A DNA stretch of 64,000 bases from an uncultured virus (IMG/VR IMGVR_UViG_3300033148_007826) (Duplodnaviria > Heunggongvirae > Uroviricota > Caudoviricetes): IMG/VR virus record IMGVR_UViG_3300033148_007826; one strand, written 5' to 3'. A program made the translations under genes and the position numbers. Positions within the stretch are counted from its first letter, which is position 1; each line of letters opens with the position of its first letter. The notes under the pieces were generated by a model. The model made no database searches. It was not told where the DNA came from and was given only the letters and a program-made list of their open reading frames with translations. Positions 36,959 through 49,643 of this stretch are shown here, piece after piece.

Positions 36959-36985
36959 CGTGTCACCTATGGAATGGTAGGAGGG

Positions 36986-36997
36986 GGGACTTTATAT
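36986..36997 (-). promoter_or_regulatory. Class B promoter motif, representative copy (ATATAAAGTCCC; more than 20 copies with variants)
   Basis: Copies near 31386, 31529, 34956, 35747, 36636, 36986, 37892, 38390, 38811, 45089, 51211, 55020, 58470, 61118, 61493 and on + strand at 51928, 63557. Confidence 0.85.
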
Positions 36998-37003
36998 GGA
37001 TTT

Positions 37004-37864
37004 CTATTGTTGGAGCTTTTCTGTGGGGTCGTCGGCCTTGCTCTCCACCCCACTCATAGCCTTCAATGCCCTGACGTACCAGACGTTGTTGATGTCCCCA
37101 TCTGTTATCTCTCTGAGGGTTTCTTCGCTCTTTATTGCGCCCCACCAGCTCTCTCCGCCCCAGATTATCTTGTCGAATTCTGGAACGTAGATGGCCGGGT
37201 TGTTCGAGCCCATGATTGTGAGTGTGTCCTCGCCCTCGTGGTAGGGTAGGAGGTAGAGGCAGAATGAGCCCAGATAAAATCCCAGGTAAGTCTTGTTCCC
37301 ATATTCCTTGGCACATGGCCTGATGCTCACAGGCGTAAGAGGTTTCGTCCGTCCAATCAGACTCCCTTCTGGATTGAACGACAACCTGATGCCCGTTACA
37401 GGATGTTTGAGCTGGATGGTCTTGAGTTCCTTGAAGGCTTCATAGTCCTCCTTTGGTTCGGTGAGCATACGAGCGAACCTATCCACGTTTTTTGACTCAG
37501 AGAGAATAGTGGAGTTGGCTCTCTCGATTCGGCCTTTGAGCCAGTCATCGGGTGGCTGGTCTACCTTCTCGTATCCCCAATTATATCTTTCTTTAGTCCA
37601 GCCTTCCATATCACGGTAGGCCCAGTCTTTTGCCTCCCCCTTGATAACCTCATCTTCCTCATCGGCAGGGAATTCCTTGTAGTCGTCCCGTGTCGTTTGC
37701 CCCACTCCCACAGACACCCAGAAGCGATACCACTGCGTACCTGTCTTCCTGAAAAGACCCTTTGGACAATTCTGTGGTCCGGTCTTGCAAGATTCCAGGT
37801 CGTCGCATTCCTCGCATTCATTCGGAATATTCGCCGTAAGATGTTCTGGAGTATTTCCGGTCAT
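37004..37864 (-). CDS. Hypothetical protein
   Basis: GGTGACACGATG; class B promoter at about 37892. Confidence 0.75.
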   Translation of the reverse strand: MTGNTPEHLTANIPNECEECDDLESCKTGPQNCPKGLFRKTGTQWYRFWVSVGVGQTTRDDYKEFPADEEDEVIKGEAKDWAYRDMEGWTKERYNWGYEKVDQPPDDWLKGRIERANSTILSESKNVDRFARMLTEPKEDYEAFKELKTIQLKHPVTGIRLSFNPEGSLIGRTKPLTPVSIRPCAKEYGNKTYLGFYLGSFCLYLLPYHEGEDTLTIMGSNNPAIYVPEFDKIIWGGESWWGAIKSEETLREITDGDINNVWYVRALKAMSGVESKADDPTEKLQQ

Positions 37865-37906
37865 CGTGTCACCTGTGGAATGGTAGGATGGGGGACTTTA
37901 TATGGT

Positions 37907-38362
37907 TTACTCTTCTGCGATTTGATAATTGTGATGTTGGAACTCGTCAATAGTGCCGACGAATATCTCACCATTATTGTCTTTGAATATTTTCATGCCA
38001 TAGAGGGCGAGAACCCATAATGCTGAGACAATACTGAAATACTCTATAGAGTTGCTGAAATAGTGGTGCGAGAGTGTCATGTACTTGTGGTACTCTGTCC
38101 TCTGGGCCTGGGTCGGCCAGTCTTTTAATGATTTGGTGATGGTTTCTGCGAGGTTCCTGTTGATTTTTGCCAGCCTATCATAATCTATGAGAAGGGTTAG
38201 AGCTTCCGTATGATTTATGGGTGCGTTACGGTGGGTTTCATAATATTTCTTGATTCTGTCCTTGAGTTCCTCTTTGATATTATTGAATATGCCCCTATAA
38301 CGTTCCAGATTATTTTCTGTAGGGGGGCGGAAATAGTTAATTCTCTCATTGAATGCGAACAT
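37907..38362 (-). CDS. Hypothetical protein
   Basis: GGTGACAAG RBS; class B promoter 38390-38401. Confidence 0.7.
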   Translation of the reverse strand: MFAFNERINYFRPPTENNLERYRGIFNNIKEELKDRIKKYYETHRNAPINHTEALTLLIDYDRLAKINRNLAETITKSLKDWPTQAQRTEYHKYMTLSHHYFSNSIEYFSIVSALWVLALYGMKIFKDNNGEIFVGTIDEFQHHNYQIAEE

Positions 38363-38415
38363 CTTGTCACCAAATAATCCTAATCCTTTGGGACTTTATA
38401 TGGATTTCGATTTGT

Positions 38416-38790
38416 TCACTCCCGCTCAACCAAACACTTGGGAGCCTCGGTATTGACCTTCATCCTTCTGATGCCCCTGAAGCCCTTCATCCGTATCGGG
38501 TCAATCTCGTGGAAAGGTCCACCCCTCTGGATGTAGAACCCTGCGGGCCAGTTCTGACCCGTGGAGAGGCACTTGAAGCCTTTCTTTTCCTCGACGACAT
38601 CCACGACCTTCTGAAAGCCCTTGATTTCGCCGTCGTGTACTACGAAAACCCTGTCTCCAGGTTTGGCATTCGGCTTGTATCCGAGCCTGTAGTTGAGAAC
38701 GATGTCGGGGTCTTTCGCCGCCGCATCGAGTTCTTCCTCATACTTCTCCCACGGTATTGATTTCGGGATGGTGATTATCCAATCTTCCAT
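38416..38790 (-). CDS. ASCH/PUA-like hypothetical protein
   Basis: Start MEDWII; KPGDRVFVVHDGEIKG; class B promoter 38811-38822. Confidence 0.55.
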   Translation of the reverse strand: MEDWIITIPKSIPWEKYEEELDAAAKDPDIVLNYRLGYKPNAKPGDRVFVVHDGEIKGFQKVVDVVEEKKGFKCLSTGQNWPAGFYIQRGGPFHEIDPIRMKGFRGIRRMKVNTEAPKCLVERE

Positions 38791-38831
38791 GTGATTGAAT
38801 GATAGAACGGGGGACTTTATATAGATTTCGA

Positions 38832-38970
38832 AGCCGCTGGCAGGATTCGAACCTGCAATCTGTCCCTGGCTTGTGTACGTCGGGTATGGCGGGAATTGAA
38901 CCCACGGACCATCCTCCATACCCGCAATCCATTACAAGGGGACCGCTTTAACCATTGAAGCTACAACGGC
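38832..38970 (-). tRNA. tRNA-Thr(TGT) with 65-nt intron at 37/38 (38868-38932)
   Basis: BHB with CUUG/CAAG central helix and UA^A, CC^A bulges; U73. Confidence 0.9.
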
Positions 38971-39052
38971 ATATTTATTGCGGCAGAACCACCTGATGAT
39001 GATTCTGCCGCCCTGGTTTTCTCCTTTTCTATCTCGGCAATCACCTCCTGAG

Positions 39053-39126
39053 AGCCACCGAAGGGATTCGAACCCCCAGCCTACTGATTACGAGTCAGTC
39101 GCTCTATCCATTGGAGCTACAGTGGC
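39053..39126 (-). tRNA. tRNA-Thr(CGT)
   Basis: Cloverleaf, U73. Confidence 0.9.
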
Positions 39127-39135
39127 ATAAAATAG

Positions 39136-39211
39136 CGGAAGGAGCCGGATTTGAACCGACGATTGCTCGATTAACAGTCGAGTGCCTTGAACCAGACTTG
39201 GCCATCCTCCC
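39136..39211 (-). tRNA. tRNA-Asn(GTT)
   Basis: Cloverleaf, G73. Confidence 0.9.
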
Positions 39212-39236
39212 ATCTAGGATAATATGGAATGGAAAA

Positions 39237-39494
39237 TTATATGCATCTTGCGTCCCAGAATTCCTGCTGCCTTTTATTTCTCTCGATTGTAAATACAACC
39301 CCGAGAAGACCAGTCTGAGCAGTTATCAGCATCATTGTTGTAATGGCTATCGTTTCCATGTTTGTCAAGCTGAAGATGATTGTGATTGTTCCAAATACGA
39401 CCACTAATATCAAGGAGATGATTGCCATATACGCCATCTTCTCATATTTGGCTTTGAGGACAGGACATAATCTTTCTCTCTCACTCTCTTTCAT
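39237..39494 (-). CDS. Small two-TM membrane protein
   Basis: Class A promoter 39527-39547. Confidence 0.65.
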   Translation of the reverse strand: MKESERERLCPVLKAKYEKMAYMAIISLILVVVFGTITIIFSLTNMETIAITTMMLITAQTGLLGVVFTIERNKRQQEFWDARCI

Positions 39495-39627
39495 GGGAAT
39501 TCCCTTCAATCATCAAGCATTAAATCTATAAATAGATTTGTAATGAATAAGTTTTTAAACTCCCAATTCCTTTGTTCCTTCGAGTTCATTGTGACATGGG
39601 CTCGTAATCCATTGCGAGGTGGATAAT

Positions 39628-40818
39628 ATGATAGAGCAAGCAAAGCAACTACAAAAGCATATTTTAGATAGAATTGAGGAAATAGCTCTGGCCGTCAGGA
39701 AAACGAGGTTCGTCCGAACATACCCGCTCAAGCTTGGGTCGGCCCATATCGCCGAACAATTCGCCACACTCGGCGTCGCATTGACCGGAGAGCTATTGGA
39801 TTCGTACACCTTGAGCGTCCGTGACATGAAAATCGAGGTCCGAGGAAGCCGGGGCAGGAAAGATGAAAGTCACTCCTACTGGGAGGCGGAGCTGTACCGG
39901 GACGAGCGTTATACCAGCGAAAACCCCGGTGAGCTGAGTGAGTTCATGCGAGCCATCGTCCTCAATAATGAGGATGAAGTGGCTTTCTATCGTATGATGC
40001 GGTCAATCGTGCCCTCGGAAGGCCCCCCTTCGGTGTTCCACACATGGAGAAATGGATACACCGTGAAGCCTTCGAATACCTACCATCCCAAAGACGAGAA
40101 CGACAAGACTGGTGTTCTGATACAGCATCTTTCCACGCTCATCGTCGCTGCCGCTCTGCAACTTCCGAACAGCCGCCGGACTGATGAGCACAAGTCCCTG
40201 GCTAGACAGCTTCTACAATTCCTTATAACTGGCAATGTCCCGCTCAACAAGCCCGAGCGGATTGACATCTCTAAGCCGAGTTCATGGCCAAAGCCGCTCC
40301 TCGCACTCAGCGATTACGGGTCGGAGCTGGTCTGGAAGTTCGGAAGTTACTGCAAGGATTGTGGTAAGAAGCTCCGTGGGTGCTTTTGCGAGCCCACCAG
40401 TAAAGAGCCTTTCGATATGCACACCATGGTAGGGGACCGATGCTGGGAATGTACGGCGAAGTACATGAAGCATTATCTGGCACAGCAGTTCGACGACCAG
40501 TTCGATGAGAAGACCTGTGTGCGTCTTTTCGACAATCACACTGAAAACACCTGGGAGTGGATTCTTGAAGACCTTCCTCACTATGATAATGATGTCGCTC
40601 GCAGAAAGAAAGCCCTACAGAAGTGGAAGAATGAGTACGGAGCCTACTTCACCAACCCCAAGAGAAACAAGGATGGCCAATATAAGACCAAGCTGAAGCT
40701 CCCCATGGATGATAAGACACTCGCAGGATTCTGGGACATCCTTGAGAATTGCTGGGCCGAGATGGAGCCCGGTGACCCGGATGACGACTCCTGTTCCTGC
40801 CCTGCTTGGGAAGGTTAA
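39628..40818 (+). CDS. Hypothetical protein with Cys clusters
   Basis: About 396-aa plus-strand ORF; GAGGTGG RBS. Confidence 0.75.
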   Translation: MIEQAKQLQKHILDRIEEIALAVRKTRFVRTYPLKLGSAHIAEQFATLGVALTGELLDSYTLSVRDMKIEVRGSRGRKDESHSYWEAELYRDERYTSENPGELSEFMRAIVLNNEDEVAFYRMMRSIVPSEGPPSVFHTWRNGYTVKPSNTYHPKDENDKTGVLIQHLSTLIVAAALQLPNSRRTDEHKSLARQLLQFLITGNVPLNKPERIDISKPSSWPKPLLALSDYGSELVWKFGSYCKDCGKKLRGCFCEPTSKEPFDMHTMVGDRCWECTAKYMKHYLAQQFDDQFDEKTCVRLFDNHTENTWEWILEDLPHYDNDVARRKKALQKWKNEYGAYFTNPKRNKDGQYKTKLKLPMDDKTLAGFWDILENCWAEMEPGDPDDDSCSCPAWEG

Positions 40819-40819
40819 G

Positions 40820-40893
40820 TGCTTCCGCCCGGATTCGAACCGGAGTCTCCTGGTCGAGAGCCAGGTGTGATTAACCGCCTACACTACGGAAGC
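40820..40893 (-). tRNA. tRNA-Glu(CTC)
   Basis: Cloverleaf. Confidence 0.9.
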
Positions 40894-40901
40894 ATGACGT
40901 A

Positions 40902-40977
40902 CAATAGTACGTTTAGTACGTTCCGGGCAAAAAGTACGTTAGGTACGTTTCGGACGAATAGTACGTTAGGTACGTTT
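40902..40977. repeat. 27-bp unit x3, each with two GTACGTT
   Basis: GTACGTT at 40907, 40916, 40934, 40943, 40961, 40970. Confidence 0.9.
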
Positions 40978-40980
40978 TGA

Positions 40981-41051
40981 CAGCCCCACTCGGATTCGAA
41001 CCGAGATTACCAGCTCCAAAGGCTGGTGAATTGCCATTATTCGATGGGGCT
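40981..41051 (-). tRNA. tRNA-Gln(TTG)
   Basis: Cloverleaf, A1-U72. Confidence 0.9.
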
Positions 41052-41059
41052 ATCGTGAT

Positions 41060-41479
41060 TTATTTATCCAGCTTGAGTAATTTGACGAACTTCTTCCATA
41101 TTCCAGACTCGACCTCTTTTTCATCGCCGTTGCAGTACGAGCCCGTGGGGACGAGTGCGACCTCGAACATCATGCCGTCATACCATCTCTTATCGTAGAG
41201 AACTGCATGGCGGCCCTGGAGATTGCCCTTATCCAGAAGTTCCTTCAGGTCACGAAAGTCCATCCACAACCTTTGGGGGGTGCTTATACCCGCATCGAGT
41301 ATCACTTTCTTCTCTGTCTCAGAGAGGGTCTTATCGGGTTGCTTTCCTTTCAAGAACTCCACAGGCTTCTGGGGGCTGAAAAAAGTTCCTCTCTTGGTTT
41401 CTTTCAGTGTGCCTTCGATTCTCTTCAATGTCTGCTTAGACACTACCATTACGTCACATGATTTCTTGTCTGGGGTCAT
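41060..41479 (-). CDS. Hypothetical protein
   Basis: ORF between tRNAs. Confidence 0.6.
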   Translation of the reverse strand: MTPDKKSCDVMVVSKQTLKRIEGTLKETKRGTFFSPQKPVEFLKGKQPDKTLSETEKKVILDAGISTPQRLWMDFRDLKELLDKGNLQGRHAVLYDKRWYDGMMFEVALVPTGSYCNGDEKEVESGIWKKFVKLLKLDK

Positions 41480-41518
41480 ACTTAACCATATTAAGCATGA
41501 CATTGATAAATCTTTCGA

Positions 41519-41592
41519 TGGGCCTGACAGGACTCGAACCTGTACTCGCCAGTATATCAGACTGGGGCATTAACCAGTTATGCTACAAGCCC
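41519..41592 (-). tRNA. tRNA-Ile(GAT)
   Basis: Cloverleaf. Confidence 0.9.
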
Positions 41593-41593
41593 A

Positions 41594-41668
41594 TGGTAGT
41601 CCCGCCAGGATTTGAACCTGGACCAGTTGGCTCAGAACCAACGATGCTGCCAGTTACACTACGGGACT
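41594..41668 (-). tRNA. tRNA-Gln(CTG), CCA encoded
   Basis: Cloverleaf, A1-U72. Confidence 0.9.
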
Positions 41669-41966
41669 ATTTCGGTAGAAGTGCAACTTGATATGAATCG
41701 AAATAGACGACCTGGGACCGCTTCGGATTCTTGCGTTGTTCTACACGGACCCAGAACCCCCTCGCTTCAGCCATCTTCGCCAGCTTTCTTCCGACCTTGT
41801 TCCATCCCCATTTGGTAAAATAGAATCTGGCTCGGGGATTGATGTTCTTCTTCTTTGGGGGATTTAGGCCGAGGGCGGTCATCTGTTCGTTGAAGAAGTG
41901 GGCAACCTTGCCTTTCGTAGAGTTGTCGTCTGTGTATCCTTCCCGAAGGACCAGGCGGTATATCAT
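41667..41966 (-). CDS. Small basic hypothetical protein
   Basis: TATA box upstream; 99 aa. Confidence 0.6.
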   Translation of the reverse strand: MIYRLVLREGYTDDNSTKGKVAHFFNEQMTALGLNPPKKKNINPRARFYFTKWGWNKVGRKLAKMAEARGFWVRVEQRKNPKRSQVVYFDSYQVALLPK

Positions 41967-42108
41967 GATTGCTCGATGGCCTTGGAGGTTTATAAAATAT
42001 AGGAAGCCCGTCCTGGGGAGTGGACGGGATTGTATAGGCCCGTTTCGGAATATCCGAATCCTATACTACTTGGCAATACATGATTGCCTTCCAGGTTAAT
42101 ATTAATTG

Positions 42109-42258
42109 TGGTGGGAACGACGGGATTCAAACCCGTTCTTCATCGCCTTTCTCCAACTTCTTGTACCCTAATCGGGCGGCGACTATATGCTTTACACACT
42201 CACCGAATATGCTTGCGGTTGTCTCGGCTACCTCCTTGCGGAGTTACATCACGTTCCC
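42109..42258 (-). ncRNA. 150-nt expanded tRNA-like RNA, no assignable anticodon
   Basis: GGGAACG/CGTTCCC+ACCA, T-arm ACGGG-TTTGAAT-CCCGT, extra hairpins in D and anticodon regions. Confidence 0.7.
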
Positions 42259-42268
42259 ATGACATTAG

Positions 42269-42342
42269 TGGGAGCAGTGGGATTCGAACCCGCACTTTCT
42301 CGCTCTGGAGGCGAGCGTGATACCTGATTACACTATGCTCCC
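42269..42342 (-). tRNA. tRNA-Trp(CCA)
   Basis: Cloverleaf, intron-less. Confidence 0.9.
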
Positions 42343-42343
42343 A

Positions 42344-42417
42344 TGGCGGCCCGTGGGGGTGTCGAACCCCCGTCCACTCGCCGACAACGAGCGATGATTC
42401 CGTTACACCAACGAGCC
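42344..42417 (-). tRNA. tRNA-Asp(GTC), CCA encoded
   Basis: Cloverleaf, G73. Confidence 0.9.
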
Positions 42418-42420
42418 TTC

Positions 42421-42557
42421 TCATATCCAAGTCATATCCAAGTCATGACCTAAGAATGACCTAAGAATGACCTAAGAATGACCTAAGAATGACCTAAGAA
42501 TGACCTAAGAATGACCTAAGAAATCATCCATTTGATGTCCATTTGATGTCCATTTGA
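42421..42557. repeat. Three abutting 11-bp tandem arrays
   Basis: TCATATCCAAG x2, ATGACCTAAGA x7 (42445-42521), TCCATTTGATG x about 3. Confidence 0.95.
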
Positions 42558-42631
42558 CCTTACTGAGTTCAATCTGGAACAATACATATCTGACGGTCTA
42601 TAGTATTGATGGAATCGCCTGAAATTAAAGA

Positions 42632-42704
42632 TGGACCTGACCGGACTCGAACCGATAGTCTTCTGCTTGCAAAACAGGTGCATTTCCAATTATGCTACAG
42701 GCCC
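42632..42704 (-). tRNA. tRNA-Ala(TGC)
   Basis: Cloverleaf with G3-U70. Confidence 0.9.
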
Positions 42705-42734
42705 TCGTGGGGCATTACGCCCCTGGTTTGTCGG

Positions 42735-43388
42735 CTACTGGTATCGGGACATCCTCATCATCTCCCAAAGACCGTTCTCGTCCGTGTACCCGACGCTTCT
42801 TACGTCCGTTACCCGTTCCTGTAGTCATATGGGCAGGTCTTTGATGTATCTGTCCTTGGTCATGCCGGGACCGCCGACAAGCAATCCCTGACCGTCCTTG
42901 AGGCAGGCTCGGGTCTGTTCCCCCACATGGCGGAGCCATTGGAGCAACGCTCTTTCCCTATCCCTCTCGAACCTCCGCTGTGACTGTCCCCCGGCCTTGT
43001 GCTTCCGGGGAACCATGGAGGTTTCATGCCACAGGACTTGGATGTTCTCGCCGTCCGTCTGTCCTATGGTCGCTTTGTTCGCATCCACGACCACGAGCAA
43101 CGTGGCCGGGACTTCGACAGGCCGTACCACTATGAACTGATTTCCGCAGTGGTAGATTCTCCTTTTTCCCTCGTAGGGCTCGACGGTTGCCTGCGACCCG
43201 TCTGCGAACACGGCGAGGCCCTGGTCCAATAGCTCGATGTCGCCGAGGATGTGCAGGATTCTCCTGAGTCCCGCCTCGACGCTCTTTCGAGTATGCTTAG
43301 ACTTGATGTTCCGTGCCTCTGCCAGTTCTCTCTGGACGAATTGCTATGGCCGTCTACTGCCTTGGGGGAGGTATAGGCTTATTTTCAT
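42735..43388 (-). CDS. prf1: aRF1/eRF1-like peptide chain release factor (N+M domains) interrupted by in-frame TAG (codon 15) and TGA (codon 188)
   Basis: GAGGTGAG RBS; ISLYLP, NIKS, YHCGNQF and HKAGGQSQRRFER motifs; homology continues past the TGA (GYTDENGLWEM). Confidence 0.85.
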
Positions 43389-43476
43389 TGTTCTCACCTC
43401 GATGGAAATTGATTATAGGACGAAATGATGGTTGTTCGTAATTATATGCGCATAAAAATCTTTATATATTATAGGG

Positions 43477-43542
43477 TGTGGCCACAAATGTATATATAAT
43501 GGGTCGGTTGTGTGGCCACAATTCTATATTTGTGGCCACAAA
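43477..43542. promoter_or_regulatory. Three TGTGGCCACA palindromes upstream of the aRF1 TATA box
   Basis: 43477-43486, 43511-43520, 43531-43540 (last extends to 14-bp TTTGTGGCCACAAA). Confidence 0.6.
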
Positions 43543-43544
43543 TT

Positions 43545-43892
43545 CTACTCCTCTATCTTGCAACTTCCCTTCTCGTTGTCCCACTTGCCGCCGTCACGCA
43601 AGCACTCGGCTTTCTTCCAATGCTTGATGCCGATACCCATAGAGATAATGATGAGTGGAAAGGAGACACCCATGAATAGGAATTCCATCGGCCATGAAAC
43701 TGTCGGAGTGAGGAGAGTTCCTGGGGCTATGATGGATTGGATTATCAGTAAGACGACAAGCACGGTTAATGCGAATATGAAGAAGTGGATTGTATGTTTG
43801 TGGTAGAGGTATCTTCCAAACAGATACGAAATTATTGGTAGGATTATCCAATATGCTAAGACCAACTCGATTATAGCAACAGTTAGGCTCAT
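43545..43892 (-). CDS. Three-TM membrane protein with Cys-pair tail (tandem paralog 1)
   Basis: Tail CLRDGGKWDNEKGSCKIEE; class A promoter 43916-43936. Confidence 0.75.
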   Translation of the reverse strand: MSLTVAIIELVLAYWIILPIISYLFGRYLYHKHTIHFFIFALTVLVVLLIIQSIIAPGTLLTPTVSWPMEFLFMGVSFPLIIISMGIGIKHWKKAECLRDGGKWDNEKGSCKIEE

Positions 43893-43994
43893 GTGGTTAG
43901 ACATTAGGATGGGGGTATAAATATATTTGTAACCAAGAGATGGGGGTGGCCGTCTACTGCCTTGATTGGAATATATGCTTATGATGGTGGGAGG

Positions 43995-44342
43995 CTACTC
44001 CTCTATCTTGCAACTTCCCTTCTCGTTGTCCCACTTGCCCCCGTCACGGAGGCACTTGGCTTTATCTGCGTGTTTCACGCCGATTACGATGAAAGCGAAA
44101 TAGAGTATGGCCCCAACACCAAATATTAGGAGTTCTATCGGCCATGGAATTGTTGAGATGAAGGGGGCTTCGGGGTCCAAGACGGATTTGACTATCACTA
44201 ATATGACGATGAAAACTACTGTGAATATGAGGAAATGGATGGTGTAATCATGAAACAGGTATCTGCCATACAAATATGCGGCGATTGACCCGAGTATCCA
44301 GACGGCAAAGACCAACGTTATTATATCTGTAACTTGGCTCAT
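43995..44342 (-). CDS. Three-TM membrane protein with Cys-pair tail (tandem paralog 2)
   Basis: Identical tail; class A variant promoter 44366-44386. Confidence 0.75.
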   Translation of the reverse strand: MSQVTDIITLVFAVWILGSIAAYLYGRYLFHDYTIHFLIFTVVFIVILVIVKSVLDPEAPFISTIPWPIELLIFGVGAILYFAFIVIGVKHADKAKCLRDGGKWDNEKGSCKIEE

Positions 44343-44391
44343 CTGATTCGATATTGTGATTGGGATATAAATATGTTTGGAGTCAAAGATA

Positions 44392-44465
44392 TGGGCCTGC
44401 CCGGATTTGAACCGAAATCTCCGACTCCCAAAGACGGAAGGATAGCCAAGTTACCCCACAGGCCC
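44392..44465 (-). tRNA. tRNA-Pro(TGG)
   Basis: Cloverleaf. Confidence 0.9.
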
Positions 44466-44537
44466 ATAGAATTACTGTTTGTTGTAATTTCAGCAATTGG
44501 AATTACTGTTTTGAGAGATTAATAGTAATGTGTAGGA

Positions 44538-45062
44538 TTATTCGGCCCAATCCATGGAATGGGCCTTGTCTTCTTCTTTTTCTTCCTCGATAATCTGGAA
44601 CATTTCATCGGCGTCTATAGTCGGGATGCCTTCCTTTAGCCAGTCCTTATCCTCAACCTCGACAATCCGGTATTGACTGAACAGATAACAATACCCTTCA
44701 TTTATTTCGAAGTCGTGGACGAAATGAACATAGTGAGGCATATCATCCTGATAGTAGTGTGGAGCCTTGAACATGAGAAGTGATATTTCAGCCCCTTCGT
44801 ATTGTCCGGTTTCAATTACCCCCTGAATTATCGAATCTGCTTGCTGGAGGTGTTCTATCTCGCCAAGATTGATTAGACCATCTTTTCTGAACATCTTTAT
44901 GAACTTGGGCGAGTCCATGAAATATTCCAGATACGTCCCATCTGGGAAGTTATCTTGAATGATTCCGACACCAAAAGCGATTTCTTCTTTGATTCGCTGG
45001 TCTGGATGGTGAGACAATTTATCGAAATTGAACGTTTTCAATATTTCTGCTTCGTCAACCAT
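44538..45062 (-). CDS. Acidic hypothetical protein
   Basis: Class B promoter 45089-45100. Confidence 0.7.
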   Translation of the reverse strand: MVDEAEILKTFNFDKLSHHPDQRIKEEIAFGVGIIQDNFPDGTYLEYFMDSPKFIKMFRKDGLINLGEIEHLQQADSIIQGVIETGQYEGAEISLLMFKAPHYYQDDMPHYVHFVHDFEINEGYCYLFSQYRIVEVEDKDWLKEGIPTIDADEMFQIIEEEKEEDKAHSMDWAE

Positions 45063-45120
45063 GATGATACCATAGATAATGAATGACTGGGACTTTATAT
45101 GCTTTATGGGAAAAAATAGT

Positions 45121-45507
45121 TTAGGCGGCGTTCCCCTCCATGATTCTGTCCAACATCATGAAGAATAGTGCGATGAGTTCGAGCAACGCCGCCATTGGAA
45201 GTTGGTTATCCCGTGCCTCGTATCGGTACATGGTCCTTTCCTGCTTGGTCGGCTTGAAGTCCATCGGCTTCATCGGCCTGTCGAACCTGTGGACCTCGTT
45301 GTGACACGCTCTGCACAGAACCTCGATGTTCTCGGGCTCGTCGCCCCCGCCGTCCCTCGTCGGGACGATGTGGTGTCTCGTCAGGTTCGTGTGCGGTGTC
45401 TTGCAGTTCGGGTTGGAACATCCCTTCTTCATCTTCGCCTTGATTTTTGGATGCTCCCTCCATGCTCCCTTGGCTTGGCATCTTTCCCAGTAGTCTTCTG
45501 CTCCCGT
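45121..45507 (-). CDS. HNH endonuclease (possible ACG start)
   Basis: HHIVP...GG...N...LCRACHNEVH; GAGGTGA RBS precedes in-frame ACG at 45507. Confidence 0.7.
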   Translation of the reverse strand, partial: TGAEDYWERCQAKGAWREHPKIKAKMKKGCSNPNCKTPHTNLTRHHIVPTRDGGGDEPENIEVLCRACHNEVHRFDRPMKPMDFKPTKQERTMYRYEARDNQLPMAALLELIALFFMMLDRIMEGNAA

Positions 45508-45596
45508 TGTATCACCTCTGGAGATTGATTATGTATGAATACCTTTATTTATTAGATTGTTGATAGGAGTCTTATGGAATTTCTAATGTCCCCTCG

Positions 45597-45986
45597 ATGC
45601 CCGAAAGGTTAGCAAGGCGAGCTTGCGACCTTTGGGTGAGAATATTGAAGGACAAATCGTATTATCGTAAACAGTGGGCCAAACGGCAACATAATTCTCG
45701 AAAGTATATTGCTCGTAGACTTCGTGTGAGGCAGCAGTGGGGTTTGTATGATTGGACCCTGGCTTACCCCGCTCTTTATGAGAGTGGTAGCCATCACCTG
45801 ATAGAGAGGGATAATGGCTGGTGGAGGACGAGGCCAACACCTCATCGGTGGGATAAGAACAACATGGCTCAGTGTTCGTGTCTTGCGTGTTCTAGTGAGA
45901 AGTTCAAATGTAAGGGCCTTAGCAAGCGGCGAAGACTTGAACTCCTCGGACAAATAAGAATAATTTATAATGTGGTGTATGATTAA
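45597..45986 (+). CDS. Basic protein with CSCxxC motif
   Basis: PHRWDKNNMAQCSCLACS similar to 31590-31811. Confidence 0.55.
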   Translation: MPERLARRACDLWVRILKDKSYYRKQWAKRQHNSRKYIARRLRVRQQWGLYDWTLAYPALYESGSHHLIERDNGWWRTRPTPHRWDKNNMAQCSCLACSSEKFKCKGLSKRRRLELLGQIRIIYNVVYD

Positions 45987-46315
45987 ATACTGACTGGTTG
46001 AAAATCGAGCATTGAAACTCTTACATCACGACCTAGAGCCTCTGTAAGAATAATATTCAAATCAATCGAGTCGAATGTGACTTTGCGGCCCCTGACCTCT
46101 CTTGCGGGTACAACGCATAGATGGGTAGCTTTTCCCGCCGTTTCCCCAATATCTGGAGTCTTATTGAGACTTGGCTTGAAACATTTCGTGCCTGGGGCTA
46201 TTTCCGAAAGACTATTCTCTATCTTAGAGATGGACTCTTTAGTGTCCTCGTCATTCATAATTATGGGATACCTAATTTCGAACAGACTCTCGCCCGGATT
46301 AAGTGCTTTATCCAT
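45983..46315 (-). CDS. Small hypothetical protein
   Basis: Class A promoter 46339-46360. Confidence 0.65.
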   Translation of the reverse strand: MDKALNPGESLFEIRYPIIMNDEDTKESISKIENSLSEIAPGTKCFKPSLNKTPDIGETAGKATHLCVVPAREVRGRKVTFDSIDLNIILTEALGRDVRVSMLDFQPVSI

Positions 46316-46366
46316 CCAATTAGTGATTTCATAGGAATTATAAATACGTTTGTATTCAAAATTAAA

Positions 46367-46567
46367 TGGCGTGGGGAAGGAGATTTGAACTCCCGTGGCA
46401 AATTAATGCCCACCCGATTTCCAGATGGTTCTGACCAAACTCGATTCCCGTGAAACGGGAGCCGAATAGCGTTCCCGTGAACAGGAAACCTTTCCGTTCC
46501 CGTGATACGGGGGGTCCAGTCCCGAAATTCAAGTCGGGGGCGATTGACCAGGCTCCGCCATCCCCAC
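46367..46567 (-). tRNA. tRNA-Ser (probably TGA) with about 109-nt intron (46419-46527), CCA encoded
   Basis: Long variable arm, G73; only a relaxed BHB (CUUG/CUGG). Confidence 0.8.
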
Positions 46568-46577
46568 ATTTAAAATA

Positions 46578-46964
46578 TTAAAGGTTGATTTTCCGGCAGA
46601 CTTCTGATGTTCTTCCATCAGTGGTGACTGTCTCACATTTCTGAATGGAGAACTTCTCAACCTTTGCCGTCACAGTCAACGAAATGATGCTCAGGATGAC
46701 CAGGATTAAATCCAATCCCTGAACCACGGCCCAACCATGCTTGAGGCCAACCACGATGATATAGCAAATTGTGAGGACTATGAATACTGCCAGGACCAGC
46801 GTGATAATCAGGCCGATATACGCTGAGGCAAAGCTTCCGGTGTAATAGCCAATGACCATAGTGAGTATGAGCGTTATAGTGATTCCGAGCAGAAGTAGCC
46901 CTAAGAACCAAGTGATGTCCAGCGCACCGATGTTCGGGTAGTCGAATATCCAGAGAGGCTCCAT
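46578..46964 (-). CDS. Three-TM membrane protein with Cys-pair tail
   Basis: Class A promoter 46993-47012. Confidence 0.7.
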   Translation of the reverse strand: MEPLWIFDYPNIGALDITWFLGLLLLGITITLILTMVIGYYTGSFASAYIGLIITLVLAVFIVLTICYIIVVGLKHGWAVVQGLDLILVILSIISLTVTAKVEKFSIQKCETVTTDGRTSEVCRKINL

Positions 46965-47039
46965 GGTATCAGTAGGTCTATCCTGTCGGCCCTATATATA
47001 GGTTTGTAACCAGTTTAGCAAGGACACTTGCCGTATCCG

Positions 47040-47318
47040 TTATAATCGGATGTGGTCATCCCAATACTTCTTGTGTCTGATTGTGTTCTTTATATCTTCC
47101 AGACTCGGGACAACAGCAGTAACGAATACGTCATTATCTTTTTTGAGAATATCGAAACACGAATCGTTTTGGGATATGAGCGAATTAATATCGCCGATAA
47201 CTTCGTTGGCTAATTTCTCATCGCTACATGATATTTTGAACCACTCCCCTTCTGGTCCACCAAAATAAGCATGACCGATGCCCTTGCTCGTTATCCTACA
47301 GCTTCCATTTTCCGGCAT
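47040..47318 (-). CDS. Small hypothetical protein (probable paralog of 47397-47690)
   Basis: Class A promoter 47346-47366. Confidence 0.65.
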   Translation of the reverse strand: MPENGSCRITSKGIGHAYFGGPEGEWFKISCSDEKLANEVIGDINSLISQNDSCFDILKKDNDVFVTAVVPSLEDIKNTIRHKKYWDDHIRL

Positions 47319-47396
47319 TGTATCGAATTTGATGATGTTGTGGCAATATATATATGTTTGTAATCAGGAGTGCGCCGTCAGGGACTTAGAATCTTG

Positions 47397-47690
47397 TTAC
47401 TTTGAACGCATCCTTTCACAGTCCGCATCACCCCAACATGGGGGTCGATGAGGCCAACCACTTGAATCTTTGGCCGCCTTTCTGACTTTCTTTTTGATTT
47501 TACGGCGGTCAGTTCCAAACATAGATTTGGTAATCACAAGTGTATTGCTCTTTTCGACCTGCCAGGCTGAGTCCGATAGGTCACCTTTCAATAATTTTTC
47601 TAAATGACGAGCCTCGTCTTCGGTAGAACAGGCTGTGATTATCTTGTGGTCCCCTTCTTTGGTGATGTCCTCAAGGATTTTACAGGTCAT
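47397..47690 (-). CDS. Small hypothetical protein
   Basis: Class A variant promoter 47722-47740. Confidence 0.65.
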   Translation of the reverse strand: MTCKILEDITKEGDHKIITACSTEDEARHLEKLLKGDLSDSAWQVEKSNTLVITKSMFGTDRRKIKKKVRKAAKDSSGWPHRPPCWGDADCERMRSK

Positions 47691-47740
47691 GTTATCAATA
47701 ATATCGAATTGCTTGTACCTTTATATAAGTTTGTTTTCAG

Positions 47741-47812
47741 TGCGCCGTCAGCGAGTCGAACGCTGTCCTACTGGTTGGAAGCCAGTTATGCTACCAGTTA
47801 CACCTACGGCGC
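47741..47812 (-). tRNA. tRNA-Gly(TCC)
   Basis: Cloverleaf. Confidence 0.9.
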
Positions 47813-47813
47813 A

Positions 47814-47892
47814 TGGTGAGCCCGTTCAGATTCGAACTGAAGAATAGATGGTTTGCGGCCAAATGCATTAGACCTGGCTCTGCCACGGGCTC
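47814..47892 (-). tRNA. Atypical tRNA with GCA anticodon (Cys?), CCA encoded
   Basis: Good acceptor and T arms; C33, A73 and two anticodon-stem mismatches. Confidence 0.6.
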
Positions 47893-47907
47893 TTGAGATA
47901 CTGACGA

Positions 47908-48195
47908 TTATCCATTATGTTCTGATAGCCATTTGGAGTATGCATTCGAGAAGACCCGATGATAGTAGAATGGATATAAGGAAATCCCGAGTAGTATGAA
48001 CCCACCAATTAAGCAAGCCCATGCCATCTCTATTGAATTGGTCCTATATGCAATAATCGCACCGATGAATACAGCCATGGATGATATGAGAGCCATCATA
48101 GTGAATATGAAATATTCATTTCTATTGCTTCGTACTTCTGAATATGAGTAGCATTTACCCAAGATGTCTATAGATTTAGAATCACAGCCGTCCAT
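47908..48195 (-). CDS. Small two-TM membrane protein
   Basis: Hydrophobic helices; N-terminal Cys pair. Confidence 0.6.
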   Translation of the reverse strand: MDGCDSKSIDILGKCYSYSEVRSNRNEYFIFTMMALISSMAVFIGAIIAYRTNSIEMAWACLIGGFILLGISLYPFYYHRVFSNAYSKWLSEHNG

Positions 48196-48241
48196 GATTC
48201 TTTGTATATATTTGGGGCTATTTAATGTTTATGTTTTGCTC

Positions 48242-49015
48242 TTATTGGATAGTTATGTTCACGGAATATGTGAAGTCCGTTTCTGGAGGAGGTAACCGCA
48301 TTTCTCCTATGAACGAGCCGCCGTCCAGAGATACGACAACGTTTGATTTCGCATCGTGGTCACCTATGACATTAATCTGGTATTCTGTCTCCTTGAGTTT
48401 GGAGTATAGGTCATGACGGCCAGATAATCCAATGGTTTTGAAACCCGCTACTTTATAGGCGGATTTGAATATCTTGATGTCACAATCGCAGGTGCAATAA
48501 TTCTGTGAGGTTGTTATCAGGATTACGACGTTGGCACTCGACGCTTTCTCTTTGATAATCGGTATGTACTTTTTGGTGAAATGCGATGTGGCATCGAGAC
48601 ATAAGACCTGTACTGGTTTATCGTCCATGCTCTCAATAAGAGCGGTGGGGTTATCTGACATCGGAGTATTCACGAACTCCGTCGTGACTTTACCATAGAA
48701 GGGACTTTCTTCATCATCCCAATACTTGTTCCCATAGCCCCTTACTATCATGTCCACGAGCGTTTTCATAGTGGTCGTATTTCCACTTCCGGCTTTTCCA
48801 AAGATGTGGATACGAACTATTCTGAGCTTCCCCTCGGTGATGTCGGGCGTGATGGCTTCTTGTAATAGATAATGTGGGCTGTGTTTTGGCTTATTCTTCG
48901 GATACACCAATACAAGGCATTCGTGGCCTTCATATTTCTTGAGGCCGTAGACGGCTCCGTTTTGATTTATGACTCCTCTGCTCGTGTCCAGAACGTCATG
49001 CTCCGTTATGTCCAT
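48242..49015 (-). CDS. DUF2080-like N-terminus fused to degenerate P-loop domain
   Basis: NGAVYGLKKYEGHECLVLV; GKAGSGNTT (Walker A Lys replaced). Confidence 0.6.
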   Translation of the reverse strand: MDITEHDVLDTSRGVINQNGAVYGLKKYEGHECLVLVYPKNKPKHSPHYLLQEAITPDITEGKLRIVRIHIFGKAGSGNTTTMKTLVDMIVRGYGNKYWDDEESPFYGKVTTEFVNTPMSDNPTALIESMDDKPVQVLCLDATSHFTKKYIPIIKEKASSANVVILITTSQNYCTCDCDIKIFKSAYKVAGFKTIGLSGRHDLYSKLKETEYQINVIGDHDAKSNVVVSLDGGSFIGEMRLPPPETDFTYSVNITIQ

Positions 49016-49074
49016 CTACCATCACCTTATCCCGATAAGGCGGTGTGTTATACTTAATGGTTTCTAAGGATTGA

Positions 49075-49641: not shown

Positions 49642-49643
49642 AT

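What the first reader, a model, noticed from the sequence alone, without database searches (positions are those of the whole stretch)
42735..43388. Release factor aRF1 gene with two in-frame stops in leaky contexts: candidate double-readthrough autoregulation
Seen: after a GAGGTGAG RBS the frame reads MKISLYLPQGSRRP*QFVQRELAEARNIKSK...YHCGNQF...HKAGGQSQRRFER...DLPI*LQERVTDVRSVGYTDENGLWEMMRMSRYQ*. NIKS, YxCxxxF and GGQ are intact, there is no frameshift, and domain 3 is absent. The internal stops are TAG-CAA-TTC (43344-43346) and TGA-CTA-C (42825-42827). Known: UAG-CAR-YYA is the TMV readthrough signal, UGA-CUA is the alphavirus/mammalian leaky context, bacterial RF2 autoregulates through an internal stop, and Mimivirus/Megavirus eRF1 genes need recoding at internal stops. 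Inference: full-length protein is made only when termination at both UAG and UGA is weak, i.e. a sensor that restores or retunes termination in the archaeal host. The ORF track shows only the middle fragment.
Basis: partly seen in the sequence, partly recalled or inferred. Interest (0 to 1): 0.92.

Follow-up and report, generated by a model that had tools for sequence, protein, structure and literature searches.

The report
Virus release-factor gene needing stop-codon readthrough
A large virus-like element of an archaeon carries a miniature translation-termination factor gene that is itself interrupted by two stop codons, and its relatives in other such elements almost all carry similar conserved, leaky stops, which points to a built-in sensor of termination strength.

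Summary
Window 42735-43388 (-) reads as a 217-codon aRF1/eRF1-like gene with NIKS, YxCxxxF and GGQ, no domain 3, and in-frame TAG (43344-43346) and TGA (42825-42827).

It is not an ordinary pseudogene:
- It belongs to a monophyletic family of about 215-aa two-domain release factors, found next to tRNA arrays on large virus-like contigs.
- All 14 distinct family members for which I obtained DNA carry 1-2 in-frame stops and no frameshift. None of 146 cellular-type aRF1 loci does.
- The stops fall at 9 alignment columns. The window's TGA column is shared with L020/L021 and with protein-only members.
- One clade holds TGA, TAG and TAA at a single column.
- dN/dS downstream of the shared TGA is 0.055, against 0.043 upstream.
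- 13 of 16 internal stops are followed by C, and all 8 TGA are TGA-CTN.
- AlphaFold folds the read-through protein at pLDDT 93.

The window uses all three stops as ordinary terminators, and none of its 31 predicted tRNAs is a suppressor. The best reading is programmed readthrough that gates synthesis of a viral release factor, probably as negative feedback, as in prfB and the Mimivirus RF. The feedback itself is inferred. No reads, RNA or protein data could be obtained.

The parts
43477..43540 (-). Upstream control region: three exact copies of the 10-bp palindrome TGTGGCCACA (43477-43486, 43511-43520, 43531-43540), interleaved with A/T-rich TATA-like stretches. Likely the promoter and operator of the release-factor gene.
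   Evidence: The 3 exact copies occur only here in 64 kb. With 1 mismatch allowed there are 5 matches against 1.86 expected. The function is inferred.
43394..43400 (-). Shine-Dalgarno-like GAGGTGA, 5 nt before the ATG.
   Evidence: A GGTGA-type motif also lies upstream of the ATG in 8 of the 16 family genes printed, the window included.
43347..43388 (-). Segment 1: codons 1-14 (MKISLYLPQGSRRP), the first beta-strand of the N domain.
   Evidence: strand 2-7, pLDDT about 95. pN against L018 is 0.20, no higher than in the rest of the gene.
43344..43346 (-). In-frame TAG (codon 15), context CCA-TAG-CAA-TTC.
   Evidence: This column is R in 10 and Q or M in 4 of the other 14 aligned members. L025 has a TGA two residues upstream in the same loop.
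42828..43343 (-). Segment 2: codons 16-187. It holds the rest of the N domain (NIKS 43299-43310; YHCGNQF 43134-43154) and most of the M domain (GGQ 42984-42992).
42825..42827 (-). In-frame TGA (codon 188), context ATA-TGA-CTA-CAG, in the loop between helix 177-184 and strand 193-198.
   Evidence: L020 and L021 have a TGA at the same alignment column. The ORFs of P0011, P0013, P0014, P0017, P0018, P0020, P0062, P0064 and P0094 end at this column.
42738..42824 (-). Segment 3: codons 189-217 (LQERVTDVRSVGYTDENGLWEMMRMSRYQ), the last strand and helix of the M domain.
   Evidence: The Pfam match extends through it. pLDDT is about 97. GYTDENGLWE is invariant among 11 members. dN/dS for this segment in L020 against L021 is 0.055.
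42735..42737 (-). Terminal TAG of the gene.
   Evidence: It is followed 30 nt later by tRNA-Ala.
32877..59315 (-). tRNA island in which the gene sits. ARAGORN finds 26 tRNA genes, or 31 when introns are allowed. Five have introns at the canonical anticodon-loop position, and none has a stop-reading anticodon. The island also holds an RNA ligase gene (56559-57230).

Best explanation
The locus is a working gene of a large virus-like element of an archaeon. It encodes a miniature class-I release factor with a decoding N domain (NIKS, YxCxxxF) and a catalytic M domain (GGQ). It has no C domain, which in cellular aRF1/eRF1 binds the GTPase partner and ABCE1.

The full 217-residue protein can be made only if ribosomes read through two in-frame stops, TAG-C at codon 15 and TGA-CTA at codon 188. 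Most likely near-cognate tRNAs do this; the element itself encodes Gln, Trp, Tyr, Lys, Cys and Arg tRNAs.

Release factors compete with those tRNAs at exactly these codons. Output of the gene should therefore fall when termination capacity (host aRF1 plus the viral factor) is high, and rise when it is low or when tRNAs are in excess. That would be a negative-feedback sensor, analogous to the in-frame stop of bacterial prfB and of the Mimivirus/Megavirus release-factor genes.

Shown here: the stops are real, recurrent, conserved and sit in weak contexts, and the sequence after them is under purifying selection.
Inferred: the readthrough mechanism, which residue is inserted, the feedback loop, and release activity without a GTPase.
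For: 1. Family.
- One search finds about 28 short relatives (44-63% identity) on contigs up to 135 kb.
- In a tree of 109 rows they form one clade (SH-aLRT 100, stem 1.57), outside any cellular phylum.

2. Stops are the rule.
- All 14 distinct members with DNA (the window plus 13 loci) have 1-2 in-frame stops and no frameshift.
- In the best tblastn HSPs, 15 of 17 compact locus entries contain a stop, against 0 of 146 cellular-type aRF1 loci and 0 of 14 giant-virus eRF1 loci.

3. The stops are retained.
- The window's TGA column is also TGA in L020 and L021.
- One clade has TGA, TAG, TAA and TAG at a single column (L025, L026, L027, L032).
- L023 and L099 share TGA at codon 6. L022 and L024 share a TAG.
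- L027 and L028 are identical, including the TAA, in two different metagenomes.
- ORFs ending exactly at the window's TGA column recur on 7, 4, 2 and 2 contigs.

4. Purifying selection past the stop.
- L020 against L021: dN/dS is 0.043 upstream (183 codons) and 0.055 downstream (31 codons), at pS about 0.6.
- L026 against L032, downstream of their TAG: 0.126.
- For the window against L018, pN is 0.20, 0.29 and 0.29 in the three segments.

5. Weak contexts.
- 13 of 16 internal stops are followed by C, against a background of 19.5%. By site this is 7 of 9, p = 2.6e-4.
- 11 of 16 are followed by a CTN codon, against a background of 5.6%. By site this is 5 of 9, p = 5.8e-5.
- All 8 internal TGA are TGA-CTN.
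- The genes' true terminators are TAA in 11 of 14.
- Only 8 of 62 terminal stops in the window are followed by C.

6. Stop columns are less conserved than average (0.28 against 0.45, permutation p = 0.043). This is expected if a variable residue is inserted.

7. Fold. The read-through protein models at pLDDT 93.4 and pTM 0.74, with the post-TGA piece as an integral strand and helix. It matches the N and M domains of eRF1/aRF1, with TM 0.72-0.74 to ribosome-accommodated eRF1.

8. No sign of another genetic code.
- The window ends its genes with TAA 24, TAG 20 and TGA 18 times, and holds an intact 1873-codon ORF.
- None of the 31 predicted tRNAs reads a stop.

9. Precedent. The Mimivirus/Megavirus RF genes use UGA-C readthrough plus a CUU-UAG-C or CUU-UAA-C frameshift as an autoregulatory device (PMC3521657: abstract, section 6 and passages of sections 7-10 read).
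Against: - Nothing shows expression, readthrough or feedback. No run holding the sequence was listed.
- The window's TAG column is unique to it and is a fairly conserved Arg/Gln position, so that stop could be a recent lesion.
- Two stops in series imply a very low yield.
- Two full-length members have no internal stop (P0002, 218 aa; P0063, 219 aa), so a stop is not obligatory.
- L019 looks partly decayed: ACG in place of the start codon and TAG at an invariant Glu.
- dS is near saturation for most pairs, so only a few pairs give usable ratios.
- The context statistics count related sequences; the site-level tests are the fairer ones.
- No conserved RNA structure follows the stops: z-scores -2.0, -0.36, -0.36, +0.82, -0.41 and -0.48.
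- Only 64 kb of a contig of at least 135 kb was seen, so a suppressor tRNA elsewhere is not excluded.
- Only the best 80 of 370 confirmed metagenome hits were kept.
Confidence: 0.6

Rival explanations
1. Constitutive throttle or timer, not feedback. The leaky stops simply hold a potentially harmful release factor at a very low level. Alternatively, they delay it until the element's own near-cognate tRNAs have accumulated. In neither case does the factor act back on its own synthesis. A sub-variant concerns the codon-188 stop: it may give two isoforms, short and long, both functional.
For: - The comparative evidence is the same as for the best explanation.
- Stops occur anywhere from codon 6 to codon 209, which suits a plain attenuator.
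- The gene sits inside a tRNA array in the window and in 7 of 9 homolog loci scanned.
- A subfamily of about 160 aa ends naturally soon after the GGQ helix. A product truncated at codon 188 might therefore not be useless.
Against: - Any release factor that recognises these codons necessarily competes at them, so some feedback is hard to avoid if the product is active.
- All three stop codons serve as internal stops, matching an omnipotent factor.
- Weaker promoters or ribosome-binding sites would be a simpler way to lower expression.
Confidence: 0.2
2. The family uses programmed stops, but this particular copy is dead or dying. The lineage-specific TAG at codon 15 would be a recent inactivating mutation added to the older TGA.
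For: - The TAG column is unique to the window among 15 aligned members and is mostly Arg.
- No close relative with DNA exists to date the change; the nearest is at 59% identity.
- L019 shows that decaying copies occur.
Against: - TAG is followed by C, the favoured weak context.
- L025 also carries two stops, one of them in the same loop.
- The 14 codons before the TAG, the SD motif and the promoter-like region are intact.
- There are no other lesions in 217 codons.
- Gln occurs at this column in two members. A near-cognate reading of TAG as Gln would therefore fit, and a tRNA-Gln(CUG) is encoded nearby.
Confidence: 0.1
3. The stops are ordinary sense codons for this element or its host: a reassigned code, pyrrolysine at TAG, or a dedicated suppressor tRNA encoded outside the window.
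For: - One relative (L099) lies in a bin labelled Methanomassiliicoccales, an order I recall as using pyrrolysine.
- Only 64 kb of at least 135 kb was seen.
Against: - All three stop codons occur as internal stops in the family, including three different ones at a single column.
- The window terminates its genes with TAG (20), TGA (18) and TAA (24), and long ORFs are intact under the standard code. Reading a stop as sense only merges frames and lowers the share of ORFs on the gene-bearing strand.
- There is no suppressor among the 31 tRNAs of the window or in 9 homolog loci.
- No PylS above cut-off was found in the L099 bin.
Confidence: 0.05
4. Sequencing or assembly error.
For: Reads could not be inspected.
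Against: - In-frame stops occur in 13 independent homolog loci from different samples.
- The same stop is seen in two metagenomes (L027 and L028).
- ORFs ending at the same column are seen on up to 7 contigs.
- Errors would give indels at least as often as stops, and none was seen in the 14 core members.
Confidence: 0.02

Closest known systems
Mimivirus R726 / Megavirus mg280 class-I release factor genes (Jeudy et al. 2012, PMC3521657)
   Same: - A virus-encoded eRF1/aRF1-type factor whose ORF holds two internal stops.
- The readthrough stop is UGA-C, while the genuine stop is a strong UAA.
- The recoding is conserved between homologs at about 47% identity.
- It is interpreted as autoregulation.
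- A relative of the window's gene (L031) needs a +1 shift at CTT-TAG-C, the very motif reported for Mimivirus.
   Different: - The host domain differs: archaeal-type tRNA introns, SD motifs and TATA-like promoters here, against amoeba viruses.
- The window uses two readthroughs and no frameshift.
- The protein is a 217-residue N+M form with no C domain.
- The stop position turns over among relatives (9 columns) instead of being fixed.
- In the tree the giant-virus sequences served as the outgroup, and the compact family lies among archaeal sequences.
- None of the 14 giant-virus loci fetched here had a stop in the N+M region.
Bacterial prfB (RF2) +1 frameshift autoregulation
   Same: A release-factor gene is interrupted by a stop codon that its own product recognises, followed by C. 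Low factor level favours recoding. (Recalled, and as described in PMC3521657 passages.)
   Different: - The protein family is unrelated (bacterial RF2).
- The recoding is a frameshift at CUU-UGA-C, not readthrough.
- There is one fixed site near the 5' end, and only UGA is used.
- Here all three stops are used, as expected for a factor of the omnipotent aRF1 type.
Plant eRF1-1 autoregulation by readthrough and nonsense-mediated decay (PMC5397192; search listing and start of abstract only)
   Same: An eRF1-type factor controls its own level through the efficiency of termination at a stop codon of its own mRNA.
   Different: In plants the stop in question is the normal terminator and the effect works through mRNA decay. 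Here the stops are inside the coding region, and archaea have no known equivalent decay pathway (recalled).
Cellular aRF1 (e.g. PDB 4af1, 3agk)
   Same: - NIKS, YxCxxxF and GGQ are present.
- Pfam eRF1_2 scores 74.9 bits.
- A profile of the family hits 4af1 at 1.6e-21.
- The fold matches the N+M domains.
   Different: - About half the size.
- It lacks the first helix of the N domain, has a shorter N-domain hairpin and has no C domain.
- The gene is interrupted by stops, which 0 of 146 cellular-type loci show.

Membership tests
aRF1/eRF1 class-I release factor | GGQ motif in an eRF1 domain 2 (Pfam PF03464 above its cut-off) | tested here: met
   GGQ is at codons 133-135. PF03464 scores 74.9 bits against a cut-off of 27.1. 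G133 and G134 are invariant and Q135 nearly so in 59 sequences.
aRF1/eRF1 class-I release factor | Stop-codon decoding motifs NIKS and YxCxxxF in an eRF1-type N domain | tested here: met
   - NIKS is at codons 27-30 and YHCGNQF at 79-85.
- Foldseek aligns about 240 columns, including the N domain, to eRF1/aRF1.
- Pfam domain 1 (PF03463) did not reach E <= 1 for the window, although it is on record for several relatives.
- That these motifs define decoding is recalled.
aRF1/eRF1 class-I release factor | C-terminal domain 3 (PF03465), which binds the GTPase partner | tested here: not met
   - There is no PF03465 match.
- The ORF ends 30 nt before a tRNA gene.
- The whole family ends right after the M domain.
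- It is therefore a truncated relative, not a canonical aRF1.
aRF1/eRF1 class-I release factor | Peptidyl-tRNA hydrolysis at stop codons on the ribosome | not testable with these tools
   This needs a release assay with the purified protein.
Autoregulated release-factor genes (prfB type, Mimivirus type) | Premature in-frame stop inside the factor's own ORF, with homologous coding sequence beyond it | tested here: met
Autoregulated release-factor genes (prfB type, Mimivirus type) | Recoding signal conserved among diverged homologs, with purifying selection downstream | tested here: met
   - 14 of 14 core members with DNA carry stops.
- Columns are shared within and between clades.
- dN/dS after the stop is 0.055.
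- The exact site is not fixed across the family.
Autoregulated release-factor genes (prfB type, Mimivirus type) | Weak termination context (stop followed by C) at the internal stop, and a strong one at the real end | tested here: met
   - 13 of 16 internal stops are followed by C. Terminal stops of the family genes are TAA in 11 of 14.
- Both internal stops of the window are followed by C.
- Its own terminator is TAG-C, which is an exception.
Autoregulated release-factor genes (prfB type, Mimivirus type) | +1 frameshift at CUU-stop-C | tested here: not met
   The window keeps one frame throughout. Only the related locus L031 needs a +1 shift, at CTT-TAG-C.
Autoregulated release-factor genes (prfB type, Mimivirus type) | Recoding efficiency falls as factor level rises | not testable with these tools
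   This needs reporter or in vitro titration experiments.
TMV-type readthrough signal (UAG-CAR-YYA, recalled) | Six-base 3' context CAR-YYA after UAG | tested here: not met
   The window has TAG-CAA-TTC. CAA fits, but TTC ends in C, not A. No other family member has TAG-CAR.

The most novel reading that the evidence does not exclude
Large archaeal viruses that carry near-complete tRNA sets also carry a minimal, GTPase-independent release factor whose gene is kept interrupted by at least one leaky stop codon. The stop may move or change type (TGA, TAG or TAA), but some stop is retained. On this reading the gene is a self-adjusting gauge of the balance between tRNA and release factor in the infected cell. 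This would be a third, independent origin of the release-factor-senses-itself circuit, after bacterial prfB and the Mimiviridae. It would also be the first comparative evidence for context-driven (stop-CUN) readthrough by ordinary tRNAs in archaea.
Probability: 0.5. Interest if true: 0.85.

Novelty: new variant of a known kind. Interest (0 to 1): 0.8.

Why it matters
- A 2021 review of recoding in archaea (PMC8211752) treats stop-codon readthrough there in terms of selenocysteine and pyrrolysine. I read only passages of it. A gene family with 9 recoding columns and a clear stop-C / TGA-CTN signature would be a ready set of natural test sequences for readthrough by ordinary tRNAs in archaea.
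- It suggests that the weak-terminator rule known from eukaryotic eRF1 (recalled) also holds for aRF1.
- Viruses of archaea, like giant viruses of amoebae, would be meddling with termination as well as with tRNA supply.
- A two-domain factor lacking the GTPase-binding domain, if active, would be the smallest natural eRF1-type release factor. It would be a useful tool for studying termination.
- Practically, gene callers split or truncate nearly every member of the family, so the family is mis-annotated in public data.
- My four literature searches found no paper describing release factors with internal stops in archaeal viruses. The library lacks most subscription journals.

Tried and rejected
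- **Sequencing runs:** none was listed, and no RNA holder was listed. Reads and expression could not be examined.
- **Phage collection:** tblastn gave no match.
- **IMG/VR:** a single-protein scan found nothing. Profile scans found only one compact member (L001 = L098), plus a full-length viral aRF1 (L002) and giant-virus eRF1s.
- **Metagenome scan:** the first attempt failed because alignment A1 was too loose. It was repeated with the tighter A2.
- **Alternative genetic code:** rejected.
- **Suppressor tRNA in the window or in homolog loci:** none found.
- **Pyrrolysine:** no PylS above cut-off in the one binned genome.
- **Downstream RNA structure as a readthrough stimulator:** no consistent signal.
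- **Listing adjacent same-frame ORF pairs, to find other interrupted genes in the window:** too noisy to use.
- **Pfam and PHROGs on 27 and 45 window ORFs:** almost no named functions and no capsid, portal or terminase. "Virus" therefore rests on the IMG/VR label of L001, the tRNA array, and the HNH, RNA-ligase and dCMP-deaminase genes.
- **Host:** unresolved. L099 is binned with a Methanomassiliicoccales MAG. A 530-aa window ORF resembles surface proteins of Thermoplasmatota and Methanobacteriota. The tree does not nest the family in any phylum.
- **P0028:** it ends at the GG of GGQ, which might mean a stop in place of Gln. Its contig is only 726 nt, so this was not counted.
Full report
**What is there**

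- A GAGGTGA motif lies 5 nt before the ATG.
- 14 codons are followed by TAG-CAA-TTC, 172 codons by TGA-CTA-C, and 29 codons by a terminal TAG.
- NIKS (codons 27-30), YHCGNQF (79-85) and GGQ (133-135) are intact, and the frame never shifts.
- The mechanical ORF list shows only the middle piece.
- Pfam finds eRF1 domain 2. The match runs across the TGA to model position 125 of 133 and gains score from the third segment (74.9 against 66.5 bits).
- No domain 3 is possible, because tRNA-Ala starts 30 nt after the terminal stop.

**Setting**

- Nearly all long ORFs of the window are on the minus strand. Most have no Pfam or PHROG family. The exceptions are HNH endonucleases, an RNA ligase, a dCMP deaminase, a 1873-aa beta-helix protein and a C11 peptidase.
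- The gene lies inside a tRNA island. ARAGORN finds 26 tRNA genes, or 31 if introns are allowed. Five carry introns at the canonical anticodon-loop position, and none has a stop-reading anticodon. Rfam adds none.
- Three exact copies of the palindrome TGTGGCCACA, interleaved with TATA-like stretches, lie 90-150 nt upstream of the ATG and nowhere else in the window.
- No whole genome is held. The window's middle ORF is on record from a 135-kb contig.
- I take the element to be a large virus, or virus-like element, of an archaeon. The host is unresolved.

**The family**

- A protein search found about 28 short relatives (44-63% identity) on contigs up to 135 kb. Full-length aRF1s follow only at about 35% identity.
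- In the alignment, many of these predicted proteins either end exactly at the window's TGA column (P0011, P0013, P0014, P0017, P0018, P0020) or begin just after the window's TAG region (P0003-P0007). P0002 (218 aa) is uninterrupted.
- I then fetched DNA: one locus from IMG/VR (L001 = L098), L018-L028, L031, L032 and L035 from metagenomes (best 80 of 370 confirmed hits kept), and L099 from a genome bin labelled Methanomassiliicoccales.
- Translating them in frame gave the central result. Every one of the 14 distinct members of about 215 codons (the window plus 13 loci) has one or two in-frame stops and no frameshift.

| Alignment site (column, 0-based as printed) | Members and stop |
|---|---|
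| Codon 6 (col 5) | L023 TGA-CTA; L099 TGA-CTT |
| Loop at codons 15-19 (cols 14, 16, 20) | L025 TGA-CTA; window TAG-CAA; L018 TGA-CTA |
| Col 71 | L001 TAG-CCA |
| Col 77 | L022 TAG-AAA; L024 TAG-AAG |
| Col 98 | L025 TGA-CTA; L026 TAG-CTC; L027/L028 TAA-CTA; L032 TAG-CTC |
| Col 190 | window TGA-CTA; L020 and L021 TGA-CTC |
| Near the end | L019 TAG-ATG |

- As a control, the best tblastn HSP contains a stop in 15 of 17 compact locus entries. It does so in 0 of 146 cellular-type aRF1 loci and 0 of 14 giant-virus eRF1 loci.
- The two compact entries without a stop are L031 and L035, described under noticed items.

**Not pseudogenes**

Nei-Gojobori estimates:

| Pair | Segment | Codons | dN/dS |
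|---|---|---|---|
| L020 vs L021 (both TGA at the window's column) | upstream of stop | 183 | 0.043 |
| L020 vs L021 | downstream of stop | 31 | 0.055 |
| L026 vs L032 | downstream of their TAG | 120 | 0.126 |
| Clade L025/L026/L027/L032 | downstream | 113-120 | 0.08-0.19, where dS could be estimated |

- For L020 against L021, pS is about 0.6-0.66.
- For the window against L018, synonymous sites are saturated, but pN is 0.20, 0.29 and 0.29 in the three segments. The pieces outside the called ORF are therefore as constrained as the middle.
- One clade keeps a stop at one column while changing its type (TGA, TAG, TAA, TAG). This is what selection for a stop as such would produce.
- L027 and L028 are identical, including the TAA, in two different metagenomes.
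- ORFs ending at the window's TGA column recur on 7, 4, 2 and 2 contigs. Sequencing error is therefore not an explanation.
- A profile search of 1.84 billion representatives again returned mostly fragments whose ends coincide with the stop columns: profile positions 15-212, 1-182, 37-182, 96-213, 73-213 and 93-182. It also returned one more uninterrupted member, P0063. Fragments can also come from contig ends, so I use this only as consistency.

**Context**

- Of 16 internal stops, 13 are followed by C. Sense codons of these genes start with C 19.5% of the time. The binomial p is 1.8e-7 by sequence. By site it is 7 of 9, p = 2.6e-4.
- 11 of 16 are followed by a CTN leucine codon, against a background of 5.6%. 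By site it is 5 of 9, p = 5.8e-5.
- All 8 internal TGA are TGA-CTN.
- The genes' real terminators are TAA in 11 of 14.
- In the window, only 8 of 62 terminal stops of minus-strand ORFs are followed by C.
- Stop columns are less conserved than average (0.28 against 0.45, permutation p = 0.043). Two are exceptions: the window's TAG column (Arg in 10 and Gln or Met in 4 of the other 14 members) and L019's TAG at an invariant Glu.
- No consistent RNA structure follows the stops.

**Not another genetic code**

- Under the standard code the window has 81.6% ORF coverage and ends its minus-strand ORFs with TAA 24, TAG 20 and TGA 18 times.
- Reading a stop as sense only merges frames and lowers the share of ORFs on the gene-bearing strand.
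- No suppressor tRNA was found in the window or in nine homolog loci.
- The bin holding L099 has no PylS above cut-off.

**The protein**

- With a 59-sequence alignment, AlphaFold2 folds the read-through sequence (X at the stops) at mean pLDDT 93.4 and pTM 0.74.
- Both stop positions lie in loops. The post-TGA piece forms strand 193-198 and helix 204-210 at pLDDT about 97.
- Foldseek matches the N and M domains of eRF1/aRF1. The best TM (0.72-0.74, normalised by the query) is to ribosome-accommodated eRF1: 5lzu, 3jag and 6xa1.
- A family profile hits aRF1 4af1 at 1.6e-21.

**Phylogeny**

- The tree was a quick IQ-TREE search of 109 rows. The rows were the window, 13 DNA-derived members, 11 of the 28 protein-only members chosen for length, L002, 4 of the 14 giant-virus loci with a tblastn match as outgroup, and the 79 cellular-type genome loci (L100-L178), all with an HSP of 180 or more query residues.
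- The compact family is one clade (SH-aLRT 100) on a long stem. Its sister is L002, a 337-aa uninterrupted viral aRF1 that also lies next to 18 tRNAs. This pairing carries a long-branch caveat.
- The stop at the window's TGA column needs at least 5 changes on this tree. It has therefore been gained or lost repeatedly.

**Interpretation**

- Full-length protein requires readthrough. Selection acts on the sequence beyond the stops, on keeping a stop, and on a weak context.
- The natural reading is that synthesis of this factor is gated by the efficiency of termination itself. Because the product, if active, competes at those very codons, this gives negative feedback.
- The same logic was demonstrated for Mimivirus R726 and inferred for Megavirus mg280 (PMC3521657: abstract, section 6 and passages of sections 7-10 read). 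That paper reports UGA-C readthrough plus a CUU-UAG-C or CUU-UAA-C frameshift, and states that such devices are absent from eukaryotic and archaeal homologs.
- The use of all three stop codons fits a factor of the omnipotent aRF1 type.
- The link with tRNA arrays holds for the window and for 7 of 9 homolog loci scanned. It suggests that what is sensed is the balance between tRNAs and release factor in the infected cell. That last step is my inference.
- Feedback, the inserted residues, release activity and independence from a GTPase are all untested.

**Caveats**

- There are no read, RNA or protein data.
- The window's TAG is lineage-specific and could be recent.
- Two members lack stops (P0002, P0063).
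- L019 looks partly decayed.
- dS is saturated for most pairs.
- The sequences are related, so the site-level statistics are the fairer ones.
- Only part of the contig and the best 80 metagenome hits were seen.

**Literature**

- Four searches found the Mimivirus paper, the plant eRF1 autoregulation paper (PMC5397192; listing only) and prfB papers (listings only).
- A review of recoding in archaea (PMC8211752; passages read) treats readthrough there as selenocysteine and pyrrolysine.
- A survey of archaeal tailed viruses (PMC8651126; one passage) mentions release factors only in passing.
- None describes interrupted release-factor genes in archaeal viruses.

Noticed in passing
L031:3797-4436: This relative needs a +1 shift exactly at TGC-CTT-TAG-CGG, where frame 0 ends and the +1 frame carries the rest of the gene with no further stop. 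CTT-TAG-C is the motif reported for the Mimivirus RF frameshift, and it resembles the prfB site. The uninterrupted relative P0066 (293 aa) shows that this lineage keeps a short C-terminal extension. There is only one sequence, so a simple T insertion cannot be excluded.
   Followed up: partly
L035:283-870; P0069, P0071, P0072, P0076, P0078, P0079, P0084, P0085, P0091, P0127: A sister subfamily of about 160 aa matches only profile positions 1-160 (N domain, GGQ and the following helix) and then ends. In L035 no frame continues the homology. It may be an even smaller release-factor-like protein.
   Followed up: partly
window 43477-43540: Three exact copies of the palindrome TGTGGCCACA, spaced 34 and 20 bp apart and interleaved with TATA-like stretches, lie upstream of the release-factor gene and nowhere else in 64 kb. 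They are a likely operator for a dimeric regulator.
   Followed up: partly
window 32877-59315: ARAGORN with introns allowed adds five intron-bearing tRNA genes: Glu-ttc 32877-33029, Thr-tgt 38832-38970, Ser-tga 46367-46567, Gln-ttg 50208-50361 and Ser-gga 59035-59315. Four have the intron at the canonical position, which suggests reliance on an archaeal splicing endonuclease. Rfam did not report them.
   Followed up: partly
window 56559-57230: An RNA ligase gene (Pfam PF09414, 78.7 bits; PHROG RNA ligase) sits in the tRNA island. Together with the tRNAs and the release factor it looks like a translation-maintenance or tRNA-repair module.
   Followed up: no
window 43545-43904 and 43995-44342: Two tandem paralogous small genes (119 and 115 aa) lie just upstream of the release-factor gene. 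They look like membrane proteins from their hydrophobic runs. Both end in the same motif, CLRDGGKWDNEKGSCKIEE.
   Followed up: no
L019:204-857: This copy has ACG where all others have the ATG start, and no SD motif. Its in-frame TAG replaces the invariant Glu of GLWE, which close relatives at the protein level keep. It is possibly a decaying copy, or it may use a non-AUG start.
   Followed up: partly
L024:4915-5003; L025:2410-2486; L027 (bases just before 1602): In L024 and L025 the release-factor ATG lies 1-10 nt after an annotated tRNA gene (L024 tRNA-Lys 4915-4990, ATG 5001; L025 tRNA-Tyr 2410-2482, ATG 2484). In L027 tRNA-like sequence also abuts the ATG at 1602, but ARAGORN called no tRNA there. 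The mRNA 5' end may therefore be made by tRNA processing and be leaderless.
   Followed up: no
L002:3881-4894: A different viral contig (68.6 kb, IMG/VR) encodes an uninterrupted 337-aa aRF1 with a short C-terminal part. 18 tRNA genes lie 1.2-3.4 kb downstream. Release factor plus tRNA array is thus a recurring pairing, but this gene has no internal stops.
   Followed up: partly
window 9820-11412: A 530-aa ORF with no Pfam or PHROG hit resembles, by language-model features (0.95) and predicted structure (TM 0.5-0.6), Ig-like repeat surface proteins of Thermoplasmatota and Methanobacteriota. This is a weak hint about the host.
   Followed up: partly
L020:3114-3291: ARAGORN calls a tmRNA that overlaps tRNA-Met in an archaeal-type tRNA array. 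It is probably a false positive.
   Followed up: no
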